Shown one piece after another: positions 7,339 through 22,745 of a stretch of 64,000 nucleotides of DNA. The stretch spans positions 19,902,001 to 19,966,000 of the forward strand of contig NC_135252.1 of the NCBI RefSeq assembly GCF_964204865.1, read 5' to 3'. The translations under genes were made by a program, and so were the position numbers. Position 1 is the first letter of the stretch. The number at the start of each line of letters is the position of its first letter. Source of the DNA: Styela clava (taxonomy: Eukaryota). Under the pieces are notes generated by a model. That model had not been told where the DNA came from and did no database searches. It saw only the letters and a list, made by a program, of their open reading frames with translations.

Positions 7339-9074
7339 TGAATAACTTTGATAAGTTATAAAATCAGAAGAATATTATTTAATCAACTATTGAAGTTAGT
7401 AAGATTTTTTAAATTAATTGCGGCTGATAAATTATCTACAAAATATAAGTAAGTTAGATAAATATTGTTATCAAAAGCTTTATCCAAAATAAATGACAAT
7501 GTATATAAATAAATTAAAAATTAGCTTCTGTTTTTGGATTTTTACCACTCCAATATTTAGTTTTTAATTCAGACAATTCATGCTATATTTGCTTATGAAG
7601 TCCTTTATACGCCACGAAGTTGAGGAAACTTTAGGAAAATTGGGAGAAATACTCACACACTTTGATATTACTGATAAACCTTTAATTTAACTACAAAAGA
7701 CGAATTACTCGAAATATCAGTTAAAAAACAAAATATAGTTTTCACCTTTGTTATATAACACGCAGTATTATAATTATAATTTGATTTTAGAAATAAGCAT
7801 CAACAAATTATCATACAATGACCCCGCAAAAGTTTTGGTTATTGATCTTATGACATTCGTTATTCGCTTCGCACAAGCTAGATATTAGGGCAGTGTTTCT
7901 TTGCCTTTGTGAACCTGCCGAACCCCTACGTTATTCTGTAAGCTTCCACCGAACCCCAACAATACGGCCGCTAGTCAAAATTTATTCGGCCTAATACGTA
8001 TCAGTTAGCTTTTACAAAAATACGGCCAGCTTTAAATGAATGCAACGTTTCAGCCGTTTTGTATCTTGAAACCACCACGATCATTGTTGCGTATACCTTA
8101 GATACCATTACACTGTGTCAAAAAAACATCGTTACGCCACAATGGCGTTGACGAAAAGATGTTTTAGTTGTAGAAGTTGTACGGGAAAACCTTCGAAAAA
8201 TTGCAATTAACGAAGCTAAAAGATTTTTGATGGATTGAAAATGTTGATGGCTCAGTCCATTTGTCTATCAGCCTTCAAACTTCAAGATGTGGACAAAAGT
8301 ATTTGCTCCTTCTTTTATAGAAATAAACGAACGATAAAACCCATCAAATTAGGATTGTCCAGAACGTGGGATGATAATTTTAAGCAACGCACTCTCATGT
8401 TGTATTCGTTGTTGAGAATAACACGTATTAGACTATGACGGTCAATGGCAGGTTCACTATCACAAGAAATATAGAAAAACCTAAATGCAAAAGCGTTTTA
8501 TTATCTTCAAATCTATATCCAACAAATGAACTATGAATGAACTTTAAAATAAGATAATAAAATTTATAATCTACTGAAAAAATTGAACTAATCCAAACAA
8601 AAACAGTCCTCGGCCAACTTGACACTGCATTGGTTAATTGAAACACTTTTCTAAAACTCATTACAGATATGCTCTACTCGCGGAGAAATATCACCGATTG
8701 AGCTTTTGTCAAAACACAATTCACTTTTTAGTGGATATGCTTAATAATAATATTCAACATCCCGGATGCAAAACCGATAAATTTTGAAGGGACTTCACCG
8801 GGTAAGTTATTACAGGGGCGCATATTTTTCGTCGCTTAACAGAAATTTTTGTTTGTAACTTATAACCTACTGATACGTACATTTTTGTGGCCTAAAGACG
8901 CCATCGTGCCACGTTGGATACAATGGGCTGGGTATCTACTTCAATTACGACAAAATGCACGTAACTTTAACGCGTCGTTTAACGTTTATTCGTCGTTGTC
9001 TTGCCTTCGATATTCATCAAGCGATTTATTGTTTCATACCCGACTTGCAAACACTTATTGATGTTACAAAAATA

Positions 9075-11362: not shown

Positions 11363-12937
11363 TACCACTCCAATATTTAATTTTTAATTCAGACAGTTTA
11401 AACTTCTAGTTCAAAATAAATATTGTTATATTTCATACACTTCAGCACGTTCTGATAGTGTTTCTCTTGAACAAAACTTAATTTTTTTTTCTCATGCTAT
11501 ATTTGCTTATGGAGTTTTTTTATACGCTACGGAGTTGAGGAAACTTTAAGAAAATCGGGAGAAATACTCACACACTTTGATATACCTGATAACATTTAAT
11601 TTAACTACAAAAGACGAATTACTCGAAATATCAGTTAAAAAACAAAATATAGTTTTCACCTTTGTTATATAACACGCAGTATTATATTTATGATTTGATT
11701 TTAGAAATGAGCATCAACAAATTATCATACAATGACTCCATGGTTATTTTGGTTATTGATCTTATGACATTCGTTATTCGCTTCGCACAAGCTAGATATT
11801 AGGGCAGTGGTGTTTAACCTTTGTGAACCTGCCGAACCCCTACGTTATTCTGCAAGCTTCCACCGAACCCCAACAATACGTCCGCTAGTTAAAATTATTC
11901 GGCCTAATACGTATCAATTAGCTTTCACAAGAATACGGTCAGCTTTAAATGGATGCAACGTTTCAGCCGTTTTGTATCTTGAAACGACCACGATCATTGT
12001 TGCGTGAACCCTAGATACCATTACACTGTGTCAAAAAAAACATCGTTACGCCACAATGGCGTTGACGAAAAGATGTTTTAGTTGTAGAAGTTGTACACTG
12101 TTAAAAAAATTTTCCCAAATTTACTAAAAAAAAATGGCAGCAAAAGTACGGGCCCCATGTAAAAAAAATTACGAGCCCTATCAGTAGTATTATGAACAGT
12201 ATTTTCAGTAAATTTACAGAGATTGATGGTAGCAAAAATTACTATAAAACTGTAAAAAATACTACTTTTTTGACGGCAGTAAACCTACCCACCAGTAGTA
12301 ATATTTTTTACCTTAAAATAGTAAATAAAATTACTATCTCGATGGCAGCTACCTTACCCGACAGTAGTACCATACAATACTAGCATGATGGTAATTTCTC
12401 ACTCGCGATGACCGAACCACTACGAGAGTAGCAAAGATCTACTGGCACGACACAACAGTAAACACACAGAATATTACAGTTAAAATAAAAAAAACGAGAT
12501 TCTGGAAACGAAAATCATTTTATTACAATTAATATTTTTAGCATAAATACACACTGAATGCCTTTAAGGCTTGTAAAAAACAGTTTCGAAAGAAATTTCA
12601 TCAAATTGCCTCAGTACTGATACAAGTACATTGTATGTGTAAAGCTACACACAATAATAACCCAGTATTGTAAGACTCACAGATAACTCACATATTTTTT
12701 AACCTGGTGGAAATAAGTGTGGCTTATTCACTGAAAAAACTTTGTCATCCCTGCTATCTGGCATATTCCATTTTCAAGTTTTCTCTTCTAGATTTGAGCT
12801 TTTTTGTGACTTTGAGCAAAAATAGGCATGCAATGAAAAAAAATAAAAAAAAGCTTAATGGAATCAGATTCGGAAAAATTCGATTCGAAAAAAAATGTAT
12901 CCGGAAGTGGCAACCCTAGCAGTAACACCACCAAAGT

Positions 12938-15900
12938 TTACTTAATTTCTAACAACGGCACATATAACGCCTGTGATAGATTCACTCTTCTTGCAAGGCC
13001 GATTACTTTTGCATTAACGTCTTTGCCTTTACTTTTTTTCGACTTAGTGCCGCTGGGGTTTATGTCACCGAAGAACCTGAAAAAAGGCAGAACTTAAATG
13101 GCGAATAGGTTTCACATATGAAATTTGGAAAACGTCCTGTTATCTCACCACCAAAATAGTAAAAACACAAACACTGGACAAAAATAGTAAAAATGTCAGG
13201 TATTTATAATGTATCGTGCCTTGCCAAGGGATAAACAAAAAACTGTCAGTGGGCCAGGAATGCAATTGCCAAACCAGAAAGCTACAGATCCTCCTAGCCC
13301 CCAGTTGTCGCAAATCGCAATAGGCTCATCCGCTCGTTGACATTCGATTGCAAATGCAGCAATTGAAAAATATTGTATTAATTTCTGTCATTAGTAATGA
13401 TTTTTTGCAAATATATCAAAAATTTCCTGCTACAAAATGGAGAGCACAGTGACATCGTTTTAAATTGAAGTTCACTAAAATAGGATTGTTGTGAGTTCAT
13501 TTTTCACATATGAATGTAAAACATATTAGATTAGGAGGAAACATGTAAACATGTGTGGTACCGCCAGTCAGTCATGATTTATTTTAACCATTAATCGGTA
13601 CCGTACCGATGAATGGTTAAAATAAATCATGACTATTATTAAACACCCAAAAACTGTTTAACTAATTAAATTATTCTCAGCCCTACTCGTGGCCCAGTCC
13701 CCAGGGTATGGACACCACGAGTTTGTGCAAGTCCAGTCACATATTTCATTTTCACAACCCATTTTTTGTATTGTATGTCATCAAATAACACTACATGACA
13801 GAAGTAACAGGTAATTCATCAACAACGTGTACATTGTGCCAACAGCAAGAATTATATCAGCACTGTAGACTAGCACATTTTTTCTTACCTCTGAATAAAA
13901 TCAAACGTCAGCAAGGCCTTATTTGGATATTCTATGTTGAAAACATAGAACGAAGCAAACTGAAAAGCCACCGCTTCAAAAAACGATCTACAGGAACACA
14001 CCACTTCTCGTTCAGCGATGACGTAAAAAGTCTCAGCAGTCGCTACCGTGTTACCTGAAACACAAGATTGTAAACTTTAGCTTCGAATCTATAGGCTTAT
14101 GAATAAAGTGAAAGTCACTTGACAGGTTGATTAATCTTATTATCTCAACTTCTAAAGCCAACTAATAACAAATACACTTACTAGAGGTGGACGATTAGTG
14201 ATTTTTTGATAATATGCAATTACACAATTATTAATTGTATAATAGTACGATCATCTCAAAATTGGCTTTGGCTATATATTTAATATAGCAGACATGGATT
14301 TGTACTTATTTTCACTCACCGTTGATAGCGAGCGTAACACTGATAGAACGAAGGGAGAACTTATTATATTGATGAGGCTTATGATAAGCATTACGTTCTT
14401 TCAGAAATATTATATTTCATATTTCAAGCAATGCATACTGTGACGCAACAGTTAAAGCAGGTAGCATGACAGAAGCTGGTGATATCATTTTATAATAATC
14501 ACAACTGAGAAGTATATGGCGACACAAAATGGCCTTTGAAAAAGTTGCAGAATTAATCACAGGAAAACAGCTATCATATCATATTTCGAAATTGTTCCTG
14601 ATATTCACAATTACATCGCTCACCTCTTAACACTTACCTATGCAAGCAATAAATGGAGATTTTGGAATATCTTCTAATATCTGGGGAAAAGTGGTTTTTT
14701 TCTGAAAATAGGCAAAGTAGTGAATAAATATGCAAAAAAATTCCGTTAACCACTATCATGCAGTTAGTTTCCAATTAATTTGCAGTCGGCTCACAAAACT
14801 TTATACGAACAGTGTTGTGCACAAGTTACATTACTCTTGATGCGAAAACTTTCAAAAAAAGCATAGAACATACCTGGAAACACTTAAATATTTGGTTTAG
14901 GTCCTCTCCGAAATAATAGGCGATCAACAGGACCACCCCAGTCGATTTTGGTAATTCAGTTTTCAGATTCTTTGATTCCGATTTTGAAGAACTTATAAAT
15001 TCAGAAATTTTCTTATTGGTTGAACATTTCAATGTCCTAAATAATAATGCCTGAGTAAGTGATCCACTTTCTGATTGAATGACACTAAGTACTGGTAATT
15101 TCATAGAGGTTGGCTCATCGACCTTGCGATTAGTTACATAATTTGTTCCTATTGCAAGACTGAAGAGAGATGAAAGTAACATTAAATTACAGCCTGCTTG
15201 GAAAAGAAAGGGCAATTATTGTCAAGCAATTATTACACAGACATGGAAACAGACAACCTCTAGAGCACACTATGTCGCATGTGGTACCAGCCTGCAAGAA
15301 CAGGTGCACAATAACTAGGGTACTTGATTATGAAGTAAAATAAAGAATAGAAGAACTTCAGAATATTTAAGTATAGCCTAACCTCAGATAAGTTATAACC
15401 TCTTATAGGAAGCAATAAATAATGGGCACAAGAAGGCTTTCAACAAAAACTCTGCAAGGCATAGCATTCGAATGAAAATTATCTTGCAAAGTATCAGATA
15501 TTTGTGCAACTTACTTGTAAATGCATATGGAATTGTCTTCAAGTTTTTTTAAAATATTCTTTTTAGCTTCTGTTTTACCAACCAATGTTTCATAATGGCG
15601 CATTAAACAGATTCCATCGAACAAGTGTGGCCATAACTCCTTGATCCCACTGATGCTTTGATTTTGATTTATATGCTTTCGTTGAAGAGGGAAGGTCTGT
15701 TTCATATATTCTTCCACTTTTCCCAAATCCTGATCAGACTTTGATAATGTGTACTCATGCTTGAGCCACATTCTAAGTTGTTCAAGTTCCCCTTCATTAT
15801 CTGTTTCAGGACCCCAAAGCACACAGCCATATCTGTCAACATCTACTTGTTCTTCCACCTTAGGCTGTTGGCTTCTCTTCTTTGATGTGGACTTCCGCAA

Positions 15901-16449
15901 GTTGTCAATACGCCAAACCATTTGTTGGGTCAGGTAGGAATAGCCAGACCCAATGACTTCACCTTCAGGTCCACTTGTATCTTGGAAAGACTTTGGATAT
16001 CTACGTATGACCCTTTTAGCAATAGTCGACAATTCTGCCCTTGACGGCTTGGAACTGCCCGACCACTTCAGGACAGAGTCCACAAGAATGCGAACAAACT
16101 CACTTCTTCTGGCTGATGGAACAACTGTGCCATTTTTGCACATTTCAATTATGTCAGTGGGAAAGTCTTTCCAAGATATCACAAAGTTTTCTGCATTGCA
16201 AGATGAAGAGGAATCGCTGAATAGTTCAGTTGCATCGGATGAAATATCCAGACATAGACTATCTTTCCAGTATGCAACAATTTTCCGGGCCAATATGACA
16301 GACACCACACCATAGAGGTCTTCCTCTTTAATAAGCAAGAGATCAGAAGAATCTTCGACGCCAAGGTCTCTTAATCTCACATCCAGGTCTTGTATTGCTT
16401 GGTTATTCAAACCAATTTTAGACAGTTCATTCAAATTTATATTAGCCAT
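12938..16449 (-). CDS. Transposon accessory protein, 488 aa, with N-terminal SAM-like fold and SAMD3-like C-terminal domain (5 exons)
   Basis: Exons 16449-15515, 15036-14874, 14701-14638, 14054-13889, 13076-12938; all GT-AG, total 1467 nt, no stops. N-terminus LRDLGVEDSSDLLLIKEEDL..VILARKI is SAM-like; IKELWPHLF and FASFYVFNIEYPNKALLTFDFIQR..INP resemble SAMD3-like proteins from memory. Confidence 0.85.
13570..13634. repeat. 65-bp near-perfect palindrome in intron 4 of the accessory gene
   Basis: agtcatgatttattttaaccatt-a-atcggtac-c-gtaccgat-g-aatggttaaaataaatcatgact: 23-bp plus 8-bp arms, one mismatch, 1-nt loop. Confidence 0.9.
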
Positions 16450-17171
16450 TACTAAAATCTTCAGCAGTGCCAGCGAGAACTAAAACATTTATTGAAATCA
16501 CAGCCAAAAATAAAAAATAAATTTTCAAAAAATAAACCTGTCAATGTAATCACTACTTTCCTATATTTATTTACTTTCCTATATAAACCTAGGCAATGGG
16601 AAGGGCCAAAAATGTTGAACAGGTTAACGGTACAATTAACCAATTTTATGTACTCAAGGGTTACAATTCTTCCGAGCATAAGTCACTGAAAACAAATTTA
16701 GCAATAGAACTAACAGACGCAAAAAAACGCAATACTTCATATTTTCATCCATGTTATTATGTCCAACTAAACCATGCTTTATTTTATTTTTTCAGTATAA
16801 CAAAACCTGTTAGAGGATCTAGTACTGTCAAAAAGACTCGAAAAGATCTCTAATAACTATTACGTAAAATTGGAACCAAATCGAGGTAACAGTGGTGTTT
16901 GACTACGTTAGGGGTGGGCAATTGTTAGGGCTTGCCAGTCACATAGTTAATTTGAATTTGGTACCGGTATAAAATTAAAAACCAACAATTATCAGACAAA
17001 TAAATCAAAAACAGTATCCAAACATATCAATCAGCAAGTGAATTATGTTCGGCTAAAATATCAATGTTCAACTCATATTACTTTCTACTTGTAAACCAAA
17101 TCCAGTCAGATGTGACATAATGACATCAAAGTGATAATCAAATTTTTTAGTTTTAAGACCTTTCCAATGAT

Positions 17172-19628
17172 TCAATACAATGAAATAGAATGCTTCAAAA
17201 CAATGAAACTCCTGTCTGATACATTATAAGAATAAAGTGGGTAATATGAAAGTAGATTTTCAAAACTCAGGACAGCGAGCACTGAAGATTCAGGTTGCAC
17301 AACATGATAAACTCCAAGCCATGGAAAATGAACAGCAACATGCATTTCAACCAGAACAAACTGACTGCTCTCATACTCAAACAACAAGACAACTTTGCCG
17401 ACACTTAGGTCAGATTCCATTCTCTTTATGACTAAAAATTGGCCAAGTTCATATGTTGTCCCTTTAATAACAATTTCCCTCCAGACTCTTACTTTGTTTA
17501 TAGTTATATCAGCTAACGAAAGTGCATCGAGTATTTCATTAGAAAAAACACATGGAGAATTTGACTCAATCTTGTTACAAACATCTGGTTGAACTGTGGA
17601 GGTTTCATACAAATAGGCTTGAAACATTTGGTGACTATTAGCGAGAGTCAAACTAACATTAATAAAATTTCCAGTATATCTAATTACTTGTTTGAAATAA
17701 GAGTGTTTGCTTTCAAAACGAAGCGTCCACAGATGAATAAGTGGGCCAAACTTCAATGTCAGCCAGGGATAGTGAGTCATATAATGGTGCTTGGGCCTCA
17801 AAGGCACATCGAAACAACTTGATCTCAAATTAATATAATCTTTAATAGCCCCAGAAAGAAGACTCACTTCATATTTTGAAATACATGGCGAACAAAGCAA
17901 TTCGGTAACAAAACGCAAAAGCAAAAGGGCGCGCCAGACCTCATCATCAAAGTTTTTAACCTTATTCAATACAAAAAGAGGAAACAGTCTGATGAAACTC
18001 CAGTTCTGGCTTGCATTACCTGTCAATTTATCAGACCCCCTTTTCAAAGGTATTGGTTTTGATGCATTAATAACTTTGTCATAAGAAAAGGTCAATATTT
18101 GGTTATTCAAATAATCTAATGTGAACCATGATCTAGCTATGAAATACTTGATGAAAAGTACAACATCATATTGTACCACACCCTCAAAAAGATCGTGTGC
18201 AATGCAAGGGGGTAAACCAGGATTGCACACATGATAGAAATTCAATTCATTGAAGACCGAGTTAAATTTAACACCTTCGGCACTACAGTCACTGTCATTA
18301 CAGGAATCAACAGATAGATCATATAGATGTTTATCTCGTACTGGCATATGATTTTCAGAAAAGAAATCTTTACGAGTGGCCATGCAATATCTACATGGAC
18401 TATGTTTGCCACTAAAATTTGTCATGAAGCCACCTACCCAATGACTTCCCAAATTGTCACCAGTAATAGCAACAACGATTCCGCGAACTTTATATGCCAA
18501 TCCTAACCCCACATCTATGCCGTCTTCCTCTAAAAGTTTCAAATCCTTGATAAGGGGTCCAAATAAGGTTCCCATGTTAGCATCAGTTACAAATGTCTGT
18601 TTACATAATAAAACAAGTTGTATGGGATTAATCTTTGAACGACGATGAGGACGCATATTCGCAAGCGTAAAATACACAGCAAATATTTTGTGCTTGCATC
18701 TTCCTGAACCCAATGGATTTACGACTTCAAATGCATCTTGATAAAGTATCAATTTCAGAATTATATCATTGGACTGACATAAAACATTGTGTCTACATGC
18801 CTCGCCATCAACAACATCTTTAAGTACGTCTGGACAGGTTACAGGAGGGTTGAGAACATCGACCGCAACATCTTCATTACTCAAAAGTGCCTTTATGGAA
18901 CTCAAAACAGGAACATACTGGAAAGACGCAAATTCATTTGGAGAAGTGCTATTCTGGCTAATTACGTAGGAGACAGGTGCAATATACTTCATGTTTTTCT
19001 TGAAGTATATATCACGCATATAAATAGATCGCAAATTCCCATTCTTGAAAATATCAGCTATATTGAAGATAGCATTTTTCCCACAAATCTCAGAGAGTAC
19101 GGTTTCCACAATGTTCCCATCCAAATAATTTTCGAGGGCTGTTCGAATTGAATTCTTTAAAGGACGTTGTAGCACTTCACACAAATCTTTTAGACAAGAG
19201 AATATATTATCCACTGTAGATGCTGGTATTAGATGTTTGTATTGGAGAGATAGACAGATGAGTCCTATAACTTTCTCTACTTCTTCTGTATGAGGGATGC
19301 TTTCGGGAATCTTTGAGCTGGCCAAATCTTTCTCATCTACTTCTATAACATCCATCTGGGTACTGCTATGACCAAAAGAATCGTTTGGAATATTATCGCT
19401 CTCAAGTCCTTGGGAGCTACGATAGTAGCTATGATAACGGGAGATGTGAGACGTGAAGGAGGACAGTATGTGATAGATTCTTCCACATGGAGTGAAAGGG
19501 CACATCACATGGTGGCCACATCTAATGTGGTATTTTAGATGCTTAATTGTATCAACCGAATTATTGAAATGCTTTCCACATGATTGTAGTGGGCACTTCA
19601 AGTCGAACTGAATATCCATGTTTTCCAT
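17172..19628 (-). CDS. EnSpm/CACTA-type DDE transposase with N-terminal C2H2 zinc fingers (~818 aa from first ATG; open frame extends to 19676)
   Basis: Two C2H2 fingers (CPLQSC..HLKYH, CPFTPC..HISRYH). Catalytic-region motifs LILYQDAFEVVNPLG (D), ITGDNLGSH (D), CRYC, CIAHDLFEGV, PKHHYMTHY, LWTLRFESKH (E) match the CMC signature. Intronless and uninterrupted. Confidence 0.92.
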   Translation of the reverse strand: MENMDIQFDLKCPLQSCGKHFNNSVDTIKHLKYHIRCGHHVMCPFTPCGRIYHILSSFTSHISRYHSYYRSSQGLESDNIPNDSFGHSSTQMDVIEVDEKDLASSKIPESIPHTEEVEKVIGLICLSLQYKHLIPASTVDNIFSCLKDLCEVLQRPLKNSIRTALENYLDGNIVETVLSEICGKNAIFNIADIFKNGNLRSIYMRDIYFKKNMKYIAPVSYVISQNSTSPNEFASFQYVPVLSSIKALLSNEDVAVDVLNPPVTCPDVLKDVVDGEACRHNVLCQSNDIILKLILYQDAFEVVNPLGSGRCKHKIFAVYFTLANMRPHRRSKINPIQLVLLCKQTFVTDANMGTLFGPLIKDLKLLEEDGIDVGLGLAYKVRGIVVAITGDNLGSHWVGGFMTNFSGKHSPCRYCMATRKDFFSENHMPVRDKHLYDLSVDSCNDSDCSAEGVKFNSVFNELNFYHVCNPGLPPCIAHDLFEGVVQYDVVLFIKYFIARSWFTLDYLNNQILTFSYDKVINASKPIPLKRGSDKLTGNASQNWSFIRLFPLFVLNKVKNFDDEVWRALLLLRFVTELLCSPCISKYEVSLLSGAIKDYINLRSSCFDVPLRPKHHYMTHYPWLTLKFGPLIHLWTLRFESKHSYFKQVIRYTGNFINVSLTLANSHQMFQAYLYETSTVQPDVCNKIESNSPCVFSNEILDALSLADITINKVRVWREIVIKGTTYELGQFLVIKRMESDLSVGKVVLLFEYESSQFVLVEMHVAVHFPWLGVYHVVQPESSVLAVLSFENLLSYYPLYSYNVSDRSFIVLKHSISLY

Positions 19629-20499
19629 AATACAGTACTGGTAGTACCACTTTAGATAAGAAAATGGAAGAATCACAATGAAGAGCTGCTTTTGTCAGAA
19701 AATATAATATTATAGTACCACGAGCACTTCTGCAACATGTAATCATTTTTGGTATAACATTTATTACATGGTCACCACTTGACTTTTATTGGTTTCGTTT
19801 AAATGAACCAAAATAATCCGCAGTATTTTTTGACAAAATTATATTTTTCCAAAAACAAATAATCCTTTTTTTAAACCATCACCTCAACAATAGCGAATTT
19901 AGTTTCAGTCATTTCAATTTATTATTTTCCGTTGTTACAATTATTCGTACTTTAGGATCGGTCCCCCATATTGTAAGATTTTCATGAATCAAATATGAAA
20001 TGACTAAAATCGATCTGGTTCATTTTGAGCTCTCGAATCGAGATTCGAAATGACGTCATTTTACTGTGAAGAAATAAAATGTCCTAACAGTATTAGGATA
20101 TGTATATAATACAGTGTAAAGCGCCAAATACGTTCCGACCAAGATGGCCGCCTTGTAGACTTTGTAGCTATAATTGAATTCATCTGTCTGTTACCGGTAC
20201 CGTACCTATTGTTGCCACCGACTTGTAACGTTTGAACGTATCACATCACCATAGGCTACCGGTAAGTTACATCTATTCCGAAACAAATACTGAAATAGCC
20301 AATTCAGATTTTTACTCTTGGTCGTCGATAGATACTGGTGCCGGTAACACGGCGAAACTAACGCAGTGTGTAAGCATGTCGCTGTATACAGGTACGGTAC
20401 CATTAGATGCTGATGTACACGGTATTTAAAGAATATTTTGGTCTACCAACTACAAGTCTACTACTGTAACACAAACATGCTCAATTAACGCATGAAAAG

Positions 20500-20560
20500 C
20501 TACAAAAACCAACCGCCTAAAATAAACATCTACAAAAACCAACCGCCTAAAATAAACATC
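20500..20560. repeat. 30-bp tandem duplication
   Basis: ctacaaaaaccaaccgcctaaaataaacat x2. Confidence 0.9.
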
Positions 20561-21273
20561 CACTACGGTAACGACAAAGAGCCTCGCTTACCGAGTCCTA
20601 ATTCCTAAACCAGAAAAAGCGCGGGCTACAGGCACGTGACATTTGAGTGATGTCATAATTGGCACATTACCGGTACCAAATGACCTGTGACGGTAAAGAG
20701 AAGGATTAAATATAGGAAACTTTGTTCTCTGCAAAAAGTACCAGTACCGGTACCTCAATAATCAGACCACTACCCGTGGTAAATCCGCACCTACCGTACA
20801 GACCGTTGCTAACACAATCATCAAACTCAGACTCAAGCTATTGCATACTTAACATGCGTACCGCATTCAGTTTTCATACGCACGCAACCGATGCTGAGCT
20901 CCCAAGCAGCTTAGCGTCCCAGCCGAGATGCGCGGCACAAGGAAACTCGAAATCAAAAATGCTGCGCACGCAACCTGCCCCGTGGAGTTTTTGCGGATGA
21001 ATATTTGGACAAATAGGTCCGCTTACTTCCGGAAAAATAAGATATAAAACAATATCTTATCTTGTCTAATGCAATAGCAAAACAATCAGAATTTTTGGGT
21101 GATGAACCAAAATAATTCTAGAATAAAATTAATTCAAATTAATTTGATACCCAGAGCAAAATTTAGATGAAATTTTAAAGTATTTAAATTTGCTTCGTGA
21201 CTATATCGCATGCGTAGGTAGATAAATTCGTTCATTGGAAAGAATAGTTACTCGTAAATTGGAGGAATTTTTT

Positions 21274-21419
21274 TACTTTTTCCAAGTATACAAATCTTTT
21301 TACTATTTTTCTGTTATATTAATTACTAACTGATCAGTGAAATTACTACTTTTTCCAAGTATACAAATCTTTTTACTATTTTTCTGTTATATTAATTACT
21401 AACTGATCAGTGAAATTAC
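21274..21419. repeat. Perfect 73-bp tandem duplication in the CACTA subterminal region
   Basis: tactttttccaagtatacaaatctttttactatttttctgttatattaattactaactgatcagtgaaattac at 21274 and 21347. Confidence 0.9.
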
Positions 21420-22455
21420 TATTCATTAGTAAACTATTTACAAACAAGCACCCTGATTGGCTTAGCTAAGCAAGTCACGTGATTTCAATAAAATACTCGA
21501 AAAATTAGTAAAAATTTACTAGAAAAATTAGTATATTTACTAATTTTTTTAACAGTGTACGGGTCAAAAAAACCTTCGAAAAATTGCAATTACCGAAGCT
21601 AAAAGATTTTTGATGGATTGAAAATGTTGATGGCTCAGTCCATTTGTCTATCAGCCTTCAAACTTCAAGATGTGGACAAAAGTATTTGCCCCTTCTTTTA
21701 TAGAAATAAACGAACGATAAAACCCATCAAATTTAGGTTGTCAAGAACGTGGGATGATAATTTTAAGCAACGCACTCTCATGTTGTATTCGTTGTTGAGA
21801 ATAACACGAATTAGACTATGACAGTCAATGGCAGGTTCACTATCACAAGAAATTTAAAAACTTGCAAATGCAAAAGCGTTTTACTATCTTTGAATCTATA
21901 TCCAACAAATAAAACTATGAATGAAGTTTAAAATGAGATTGTAAAATTGTTTAATTAGTACACTTTTCTACAACTCATTACAGATATGCTCAACTCGCGG
22001 AAGAATATCACCGTTTGAGCTTTTGTCAAAACACAATTCACTTTTTAGTGGATGGATACACAACCTTTTTTCTCGAACTACTTACTAATCAACACCCCGG
22101 ATTCAAAAACGATAAATTTTGAAGGGACTTCACCAGTTAAGTCATTACGGAGGCGCATATTTTTCTTCTCCTTCCAGAATTTATTTTTTTATTAATGACC
22201 TACTGATACGTCTACTCTTGTGGCCTAAATACGCCATCGTGCCACGTTAGATATAATGGGCTGGGTATTTACTTCAATTACCACAAAATGCACGTAACTT
22301 TAACGCGTTCCCTATTCGTCGTTGTCTTGCCTTCGATATTCATCACGCGATTTATTGTTTCATGTCCGACTTGCAAACACTTATTGATGTTACAAATATA
22401 TGTTGCCTTGACATGGTACAAGAAACCCAATTGTTATATTTTATTTGTACGACAA

Positions 22456-22745
22456 CGTTTCAGCCGTTTTGTAACTTGAAACCACCACGATCATTGTGGC
22501 GTAACTTTAAAACCATACACTGTGTCGAAAAAACCATGGTTACGCTACAATGGCGTTGACGAAACGATGTTTTTGTTGTAGAAGTTGTACGGGTCGAAAA
22601 ATCTTCGAAAAATTGCAATTCCCGAAGCTAAAAGGGATTGAAAACGTTGATGACTCAGTCCAACTGCAAGATGTGGACAAAAGTATTTGCCCATTCTTTT
22701 ATAGAAATAAACAAACGATAAAACTCATCAAATTAAGGTTGTCAA
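22456..22745. repeat. Third, more diverged partial copy of 8044-8360, containing a CACTA empty site
   Basis: aacgtttcagccgttttgt...gaagttgtacgggtcgaaaaatcttcgaaaaattgc...caagatgtggacaaaagtatttg. Confidence 0.85.

What the first reader, a model, noticed from the sequence alone, without database searches (positions are those of the whole stretch)
12096..21557. Intact two-gene animal CACTA transposon: transposase plus a spliced SAM/SAMD3-like partner protein
Seen: perfect TIRs, a TA TSD, an uninterrupted ~818-aa transposase and an intact 5-exon 488-aa second gene, all inside the TIRs, consistent with a recent and possibly active element. Established: plant En/Spm needs a second protein (TnpA) that binds subterminal repeats, and SAM domains oligomerise. 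Inference: the SAM/SAMD3-like protein is the animal functional analogue of TnpA, polymerising on subterminal repeats to pair the ends. If so, many 'SAMD3-like' annotations, and perhaps vertebrate SAMD3, are transposon-derived. I know of no functional characterisation of this partner protein.
Basis: partly seen in the sequence, partly recalled or inferred. Interest (0 to 1): 0.72.

Follow-up and report, generated by a model that had tools for sequence, protein, structure and literature searches.

The report
Animal transposon with conserved helper gene
This is a young, undamaged cut-and-paste transposon, probably from a sea squirt, that carries its transposase plus a second, spliced gene found beside the transposase in every related family examined in the genome; that second protein likely helps the element move, but what it does, and its proposed link to human SAMD3, are untested.

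Summary
Observation confirmed. The 9,462-bp element has perfect 16-bp CACTG inverted ends, a true 2-bp target duplication (26 of 26 parsed sister copies; two empty paralogous sites carry one TA), an open 818-aa EnSpm/CMC-type DDE transposase and a five-exon 488-aa gene identical to a RefSeq model. The second gene is no chance capture. All five other EnSpm-like families examined in this genome carry a homolog; two share all four intron positions at 32% protein identity; 46 of 46 exon-4 matches lie in transposon copies. Its N-terminus folds as a SAM-like domain; a basic second domain and the rest match no solved fold clearly. Four of five families examined have a family-specific hexamer clustered at both ends, as in plant Spm. 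Binding of these motifs by the partner is inferred (about 45%): the transposase has its own C2H2 fingers, no TnpA homology was found, and vertebrate SAMD3 was never retrieved for comparison. Animal EnSpm elements with a second ORF of unknown function are in print; I found no paper linking them to SAMD3. This scan noted the same pairing before on other DNA. Verdict: new member of a known kind, and a good test system.

The parts
12094..12095 (.). left copy of the 2-bp target-site duplication (TA)
12096..12111 (+). 16-bp terminal inverted repeat (CACTG end), downstream end of both genes
   Evidence: pair I6
12112..12545 (.). subterminal region with 5 TAGTAA and 6 related C(A/T)GTAA hexamers
12938..13076 (-). 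partner gene exon 5 with stop codon
13889..14054 (-). partner gene exon 4 (166 nt), the part recognisable in the most distant families
14638..14701 (-). partner gene exon 3 (64 nt)
14874..15036 (-). partner gene exon 2 (163 nt)
15515..16449 (-). partner gene exon 1 (935 nt): SAM-like domain, linker, domain 2 and most of domain 3
16249..16449 (-). SAM-like five-helix domain, aa 1-67
   Evidence: Z 7.2, rmsd 2.8, 65 aligned to Sla1 SHD2; Z 7.0, rmsd 1.8, 59 aligned to SARM1 SAM
15880..16197 (-). domain 2, aa 85-190: basic helical domain with conserved arginines; candidate DNA-binding domain (inferred); no clear fold match
17172..19628 (-). 818-aa single-exon transposase: putative D298/D391/E639 triad, C412-x2-C415, H615-x3-H619
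19431..19595 (-). two C2H2 zinc fingers at the transposase N-terminus (aa 12-66), rival binder of the subterminal motifs
21108..21541 (.). subterminal region with 10 TAGTAA (3 of them from the tandem duplication), upstream end of both genes
21274..21419 (+). perfect 73-bp tandem duplication, present in the young subfamily and absent from most older copies
21542..21557 (-). 16-bp terminal inverted repeat
21558..21559 (.). right copy of the TA duplication
8180..8181 (.). empty paralogous target site with a single TA (local duplication of the flank)
22588..22589 (.). second empty paralogous target site with a single TA

Best explanation
This is a young, complete animal EnSpm/CMC-type DNA transposon with a DDE transposase gene and a conserved, spliced SAM-domain partner gene, and the partner likely works in trans as an end-binding helper of transposition. 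Shown: the anatomy, the 2-bp duplication, the recent spread, and the partner beside the transposase in all six families examined in this genome. Inferred: (1) the transposase cuts at the CAC ends and inserts with a 2-bp stagger; (2) this copy, the only one found with a whole transposase, mobilises the deletion derivatives; (3) the partner's basic domain 2 binds the family-specific hexamer arrays at both ends; (4) its SAM-like domain lets many bound molecules assemble and bring the ends together or load the transposase, as TnpA does for maize En/Spm, by analogy and not by homology. Odds: element identity about 0.97; partner kept by selection as transposon cargo about 0.93; steps 3-4 about 0.45.
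For: Anatomy. Catalytic motifs are invariant in five families; D391, E639, CxxC and HxxxH are invariant in 105 aligned homologs. Only 1 whole transposase of this family among 23 genome matches, against 37 left ends. Partner homologs occur in 10 of 10 fetched 20-kb stretches around divergent transposases (5 other families, 25-40% transposase identity) and in none of 99 kb of control DNA. Three families share all four intron positions and phases and exon lengths 163/64/166 nt at 32-36% protein identity, with near-saturated synonymous sites (pN 0.44-0.49, pS 0.74-0.81). 46 of 46 exon-4 matches lie inside terminal-repeat copies or beside transposase remnants (one search read). The family is large (4,123 clusters at E<=0.001) and occurs in fish, mollusc, tick, crinoid, tunicate and thrips, often at several loci per genome. 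One partner is 94% identical between a catfish and a loach, which suggests horizontal transfer. 5 non-Styela proteins among 179 examined fuse partner and transposase sequence. Family-specific hexamers in the terminal 450 bp of both ends: TAGTAA 15 (12 without the duplication, 0.73 expected, P 2e-11), CAGTAA 12, CGGTAA 11, GAGTCA 18. Domain 2 has 17 K+R against 11 D+E and arginines conserved in 79-94% of homologs. SAM-like fold. Plant precedent for motif-cluster binding.
Against: 88 of 90 long transposase homologs carry 1-4 C2H2-like motifs, and the profile matches YY1, GLI and TFIIIA fingers, so the transposase could read the motifs itself. Domain 2 has no fold match above background (best Z 5.2; BEND6 BEN Z 4.4 and E2F-DP Z 4.8 do not stand out). 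The partner has no Pfam match, and no TnpA-related family appears among 104 members scanned. The preprint places the TnpA-type binding domain on the transposase in animals. One of five families examined (L051) has a partner but no enriched end motif. 15 of 58 near-full-length homologs lack the SAM region, though some may be partial gene models. Variation within this family is neutral: 10 nonsynonymous and 1 synonymous shared changes, 36 and 10 among old copies, and almost all nonsynonymous among young copies. This is expected for non-autonomous copies and gives no sign of recent selection. The hexamers were picked after looking at the data.
Confidence: 0.48

Rival explanations
1. The transposase zinc fingers read the end motifs, and the partner is a protein scaffold or target-capture cofactor that does not choose DNA sequence itself.
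For: C2H2 fingers on 88 of 90 long homologs. The C-terminal domain, not domain 2, is the part best recognised in the most distant families. L051 has a partner without a motif array.
Against: Domain 2 is basic and among the best conserved regions. This transposase has only two fingers, and their recognition positions do not obviously track the motif (descriptive only).
Confidence: 0.27
2. The partner is a regulator or anti-silencing factor: it promotes expression of the element or shields it from host silencing, and is not part of the cutting complex.
For: Plant TnpA binds motif clusters and activates and demethylates cognate copies. Four of five distinct young deletions remove the transposase but spare the whole partner, ending in the 723-bp gap between the genes (rough chance 5e-4 if the deletions are independent). 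SAM-like folds also bind nucleic acid or repressor partners (one search lists Smaug, Polycomb SAMs and HhH proteins).
Against: The larger, older subfamily spread without partner exon 1. The four deletions overlap and may be nested. Two of the six partner-keeping copies have splice-site changes and one has a frameshift. This reading overlaps the best explanation, since TnpA does both jobs.
Confidence: 0.2
3. The second gene is a host gene captured by chance and carried as a passenger.
For: RefSeq names some copies 'SAMD3-like'. Neutral variation within the family.
Against: Present in 6 of 6 families with conserved introns across saturated distances. No stand-alone copy among 46 matches (a lower-bound search).
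Confidence: 0.03

Closest known systems
Animal EnSpm/CACTA (CMC) elements such as ENS1_Cis of Ciona savignyi and fish CACTA elements (PMC6004678, PMC9191631; passages read)
   Same: 5'-CAC..GTG-3' termini and 2-bp TSD. PMC9191631 states that a full-length CACTA element has two ORFs, a transposase and 'a protein of unknown function'.
   Different: The passages read do not describe the second protein, a SAM domain, conserved introns or family-specific subterminal motifs. ENS1_Cis itself was not compared (Repbase not available).
Maize En/Spm and Arabidopsis Spm with TnpA/TnpD (PMC1636069 background; bioRxiv 10.64898/2026.08.24.746577 sections 4, 6, 21)
   Same: CAC termini, DDE transposase, a second protein, family-specific motif clusters at both ends.
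   Different: 2-bp, not 3-bp, TSD. The partner is a separate ORF with a SAM-like domain and no detected TnpA similarity. The transposase has C2H2 fingers. The TnpA DNA-binding domain is two tandem tri-helical HTH motifs, not seen as such here.
SmTRC1 / TRC elements (PMC1636069; part 1 of 6 and passages)
   Same: Animal CACTA-related element with a weak Transposase_21 match and extra spliced proteins proposed to play the TnpA role.
   Different: CCC termini and 54-bp TIR. Its extra proteins come from alternative splicing and were not conserved in other elements, whereas this partner is conserved across phyla.
PIF/Harbinger two-protein transposons (transposase plus Myb/SANT protein; HARBI1 and NAIF1) (recalled; HARBI1 domestication seen in PMC5753468 passages)
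   Same: A separate second gene needed with the transposase, and domestication in vertebrates, is the model for the proposed mechanism.
   Different: Different superfamily and TSD; no Myb/SANT match in the partner.
Vertebrate SAMD3
   Same: RefSeq names two Styela partner copies 'SAMD3-like'. An Atlas cluster so named scores 0.96. An N-terminal SAM followed by an uncharacterised remainder is recalled for SAMD3.
   Different: SAMD3 itself was never returned by a search, so homology and direction of descent are untested. SAMD3 is a host gene expressed in T and NK cells (listing and passages).

Membership tests
EnSpm/CACTA (CMC/CMCT) DNA transposons | 5'-CAC..GTG-3' termini with short TIRs | tested here: met
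   16-bp perfect CACTG TIR; definition in PMC12730594 and PMC6004678
EnSpm/CACTA (CMC/CMCT) DNA transposons | short TSD (3 bp in plant and fungal EnSpm, 2 bp in ENS1_Cis-type animal elements) | tested here: met
   2 bp in 26 of 26 parsed copies, and empty sites; the 3-bp plant form is not met
EnSpm/CACTA (CMC/CMCT) DNA transposons | [quoted passage not shown] | tested here: met
   D298, D391, C412-x2-C415, H615-x3-H619, E639; triad assigned by conservation, not by structure
EnSpm/CACTA (CMC/CMCT) DNA transposons | Transposase_21 (PF02992) domain | tested here: inconclusive
   E 0.0049, 16.5 bits, below the 28.6 cut-off; 4 of 14 homologs match, best E 1.1e-6; placement within CMCT as EnSpm proper was not tested by a tree
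EnSpm/CACTA (CMC/CMCT) DNA transposons | clustered subterminal motifs at both ends | tested here: met
   TAGTAA 15 in 900 bp against 0.73 expected
EnSpm/CACTA (CMC/CMCT) DNA transposons | second protein besides the transposase | tested here: met
ESTA (fungal EnSpm-like elements with TA TSD) | TA-specific TSD | tested here: not met
   17 of 26 TA; 9 other dinucleotides
Plant TnpA proteins | sequence similarity to TnpA | tested here: inconclusive
   no Pfam family for the partner at E<=1 and no TnpA-related family in 104 members; no TnpA sequence was compared directly
Plant TnpA proteins | two tandem tri-helical HTH DNA-binding domain | tested here: inconclusive
   domain 2 is four helices plus a hairpin; best Z 5.2, no clear match; no TnpA model was in the libraries searched
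Plant TnpA proteins | made from the transposase transcription unit by alternative splicing (or from a separate gene) | tested here: inconclusive
   one presumed-RNA contig runs unspliced from 20394 to 15514 across both ORFs; contigs cannot show transcript structure
Plant TnpA proteins | binds subterminal motifs and is required for transposition | not testable with these tools
   needs EMSA, ChIP and excision assays
SAM domains | five-helix SAM fold | tested here: met
   aa 1-67, pLDDT about 94-97 in the core; SAM domains fill most of the top 50 rows, Z up to 7.2; HhH domains score similarly; weak SAM_TNK hits in 9 of 104 members
SAM domains | head-to-tail polymerisation | not tested
   no self-complex job was run
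Vertebrate SAMD3 family | full-length homology to SAMD3 beyond the SAM domain | not tested
   no SAMD3 record was seen among the named hits; one search lists only 150 of 4,123 unnamed hits; only annotation labels point to it

The most novel reading that the evidence does not exclude
Animal EnSpm transposons are obligate two-protein machines whose second subunit is a SAM-oligomerising, sequence-specific end-binding protein unrelated to plant TnpA and co-evolving with each family's subterminal hexamer. The thousands of 'SAMD3-like' genes in animal annotations are these subunits, and vertebrate SAMD3, a T- and NK-cell gene, is a domesticated copy, which would be the first human gene traced to the EnSpm superfamily. 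The SAMD3-origin half alone I put near 0.5.
Probability: 0.25. Interest if true: 0.82.

Novelty: new member of a known kind. Interest (0 to 1): 0.52.

Why it matters
The second ORF of animal EnSpm elements is noted in print only as of unknown function. Here it resolves into a conserved four-domain protein family of thousands of clusters that genome annotation treats as host genes, so 'SAMD3-like' hits in animal studies should be checked for a flanking transposase. This copy supplies a complete test kit: whole transposase, whole partner, both ends, ready-made deletion derivatives, and sister families with different end motifs for swap experiments. The 2018 Repbase review lists 12 DNA-transposon superfamilies with traces in the human genome, and EnSpm is not among them, so a transposon origin of SAMD3 would be new and would give a molecular lead for a poorly understood lymphocyte gene.

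Tried and rejected
A first gene model with the exon-2 acceptor at 15159 (529 aa) was rejected; the 15036 acceptor matches RefSeq and the spliced contigs. Foldseek of the whole partner against the PDB and viral libraries, and of domain 2 against the PDB, gave nothing at E<=0.001. A BEN-domain guess for domain 2 was not supported above background. Domains 3-4 were not searched alone, so their fold is open. The sequence profile against the PDB gave only designed helical repeats and one weak row. Complex prediction of transposase 110-818 with partner 201-488 gave no verdict (score 0.00, alignments not used); it is no evidence either way. No holder was on record as RNA, and no joint skipping the transposase ORF was listed in three presumed-RNA runs; neither is evidence. 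Selection tests within the family were uninformative. Selective retention of the partner in non-autonomous copies was considered and left open. Literature: nine searches found no paper linking SAMD3 or a SAM domain to EnSpm/CACTA elements. Yuan and Wessler 2011 and Peters et al. 2022 (Samd3 mouse) were not held. Repbase entries and the preprint's supplements, which cover 962 Spm proteins including accessory ones, could not be seen and may already describe this protein.
Full report
Observation. The element spans 12096-21557 (9,462 bp) with 16-bp perfect inverted ends starting CACTG and TA on both flanks. The flank is locally duplicated, and both paralogous sites (8181|8182, 22589|22590) are empty with a single TA, so the TA is a real duplication. 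Of 35 sister stretches examined, 26 had both ends parsed and all 26 show a 2-bp duplication: 17 TA and 9 others. The transposase is one ORF of 818 aa on the minus strand. The second gene lies 723 bp downstream on the same strand, in five exons with GT-AG introns, and encodes 488 aa identical to RefSeq XP_077966941.1, labelled Styela clava. Contigs from three presumed-RNA runs of three studies join introns 3 and 4, two of them join intron 1, and a DNA-like run joins none. Intron 2 was not listed, and the joints may come from sister copies.

The family. The left end has 37 matches and the right end 55 rows in the genome, both lower bounds. Only the window copy has a whole transposase among 23 matches. 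Seven young copies differ from it by 0.27-0.41%. Six of them lost the transposase and kept the partner region: three look intact, two have a splice-site change and one a frameshift. The seventh fuses the transposase start to partner exon 2. Older copies (about 92-95% identical) keep only the 3' exons. This is the usual picture of one master copy and its deletion derivatives. Current activity is not shown.

The transposase. D298, D391, E639, C412-x2-C415 and H615-x3-H619 are invariant in five families from this genome, and all but D298 are listed as invariant in 105 aligned sequences. These are the motifs given for the CMCT clade in PMC12730594 (passages). Transposase_21 matches only weakly. 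The N-terminus has two C2H2 fingers; 88 of 90 long homologs have one to four, and the profile matches YY1, GLI and TFIIIA.

The partner is conserved cargo. I fetched 20-kb stretches around 10 divergent transposase loci (seven further copies of one C19 array were not fetched). They fall into five families. All 10 contain partner homology, against none in 99 kb of control DNA. Four of the five families have a TIR-bounded copy with CAC ends and a 2-bp duplication. In L051 the partner lies head-to-head on the other strand. The window, L041 and L043 partners are 32-36% identical, with near-saturated synonymous sites, yet share all four intron positions and phases and exon lengths of 163, 64 and 166 nt. 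All 46 genome matches to exon 4 lie in terminal-repeat copies or beside transposase remnants (one search read). Elsewhere the family has 4,123 clusters at E<=0.001. Of 10 representatives looked up, 9 carry names, from fish, abalone, tick, crinoid, tunicate and thrips. One is 94% identical between a catfish and a loach, and five non-Styela proteins among 179 fuse partner and transposase sequence. Outside this genome the DNA context was not available, so linkage there is indirect. Within the family, variation is neutral, as expected for passive copies.

Partner structure. The AlphaFold2 model (127 sequences, pLDDT 89, pTM 0.65) has four domains. Residues 1-67 align to SAM domains (Z up to 7.2), in a range the tool calls middling and shared with HhH domains. 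Pfam gives no match for this protein and weak SAM_TNK hits in 9 of 104 members. Domain 2 (85-190) is basic with conserved arginines, but folded alone it has no clear match. Domains 3 and 4 were not searched alone.

Ends. Four of five families examined have their own hexamer enriched in the terminal 450 bp of both ends: TAGTAA here (15; 12 without the 73-bp duplication; 0.73 expected), CAGTAA, CGGTAA, and GAGTCA in the most distant one. L051 has none. The motifs were chosen after inspection, but the excess is large. Plant Spm families show the same pattern, and there TnpA binds the clusters (preprint section 4).

Mechanism. I commit to a two-protein machine in which the partner binds the hexamer arrays through domain 2, assembles through its SAM-like domain and helps pair the ends or load the transposase (0.48 overall). 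Every step after the anatomy is inferred. The main rivals are that the transposase fingers read the motifs and the partner is a scaffold (0.27), or that the partner is a regulator or anti-silencing factor (0.20). Chance capture is nearly excluded (0.03). The preprint weighs against a literal TnpA equivalence: it reports TnpA-like proteins as apparently restricted to flowering plants and the binding domain as typically fused to the transposase in animals, while noting various other accessory proteins (section 6).

Known and new. CAC ends with a 2-bp TSD are described for the tunicate element ENS1_Cis (passages), and a second ORF of unknown function for CACTA elements in a fish paper (passages). 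Nine searches found no paper tying SAM or SAMD3 to these elements. Repbase and the preprint's supplements were not visible. Papers seen: preprint abstract, sections 4, 6, 21 and passages; PMC1636069 part 1 of 6 and passages; passages of PMC6004678, PMC9191631, PMC12730594, PMC5753468 and PMC11787060; the rest as listings only. Three earlier notes of this scan describe the same pairing in other genomes; they gave leads, not support. The SAMD3 link rests on annotation labels and on my recall of its domain layout; SAMD3 was not compared.

Verdict. Real, intact and young; a new member of a known kind whose second gene is shown here to be ancient, conserved cargo. Its function and the SAMD3 connection are open and directly testable. 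Interest 0.52.

Noticed in passing
L005 (G000:C2:10558676-10564447): A deletion joins the first 316 codons of the transposase (zinc fingers included) to partner exon 2, apparently the chimera annotated by RefSeq as P0030 (476 aa).
   Followed up: partly
L051:727-9049: A distant family (25% transposase identity, weak Plavaka Pfam hit) has its partner head-to-head on the opposite strand and no enriched end motif.
   Followed up: partly
G000:C19:5.43-6.09 Mb: Eight spaced copies of a deleted L043-family element, each with a transposase 5' part and partner exon 4, probably within a large segmental array.
   Followed up: no
G000:C19:2138632-2165364 (L037-L038): Three tandem units of the older subfamily at 7,291-bp spacing, with one right end found.
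   Followed up: no
window 13570-13634: 65-bp near-perfect palindrome in intron 4; some copies and contigs lack it.
   Followed up: no
window 12941-12946 and partner codons 25, 348, 368: The window copy has private changes against all young sisters, including a short deletion that alters the last residues of the partner.
   Followed up: partly
L007, L008: These copies have an older-type interior but match the young-type right end with the 73-bp duplication, suggesting recombination or an intermediate subfamily.
   Followed up: no
older copies, between window 12606 and 12919: Older copies carry about 1.1 kb of other sequence in place of 12607-12918, downstream of the partner stop.
   Followed up: no
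P0036 and P0180: A partner homolog is 94% identical between Silurus and Misgurnus, a candidate horizontal transfer; the Silurus record carries the zebrafish gene name si:dkey-15h8.17.
   Followed up: partly
P0031: A Styela gene model fuses partner sequence with an Hsp70 domain.
   Followed up: no
window 7578-9074, 11492-12095, 21558-22745: The insertion sits in a local three-copy duplication of flanking DNA that also holds a short, abundant repeat (626 candidates genome-wide).
   Followed up: partly
L053 (G000:C2:174000-193999): The decayed element lies inside very long inverted repeats spanning about 17 kb, next to an unrelated ORF with a P-loop-like motif.
   Followed up: no
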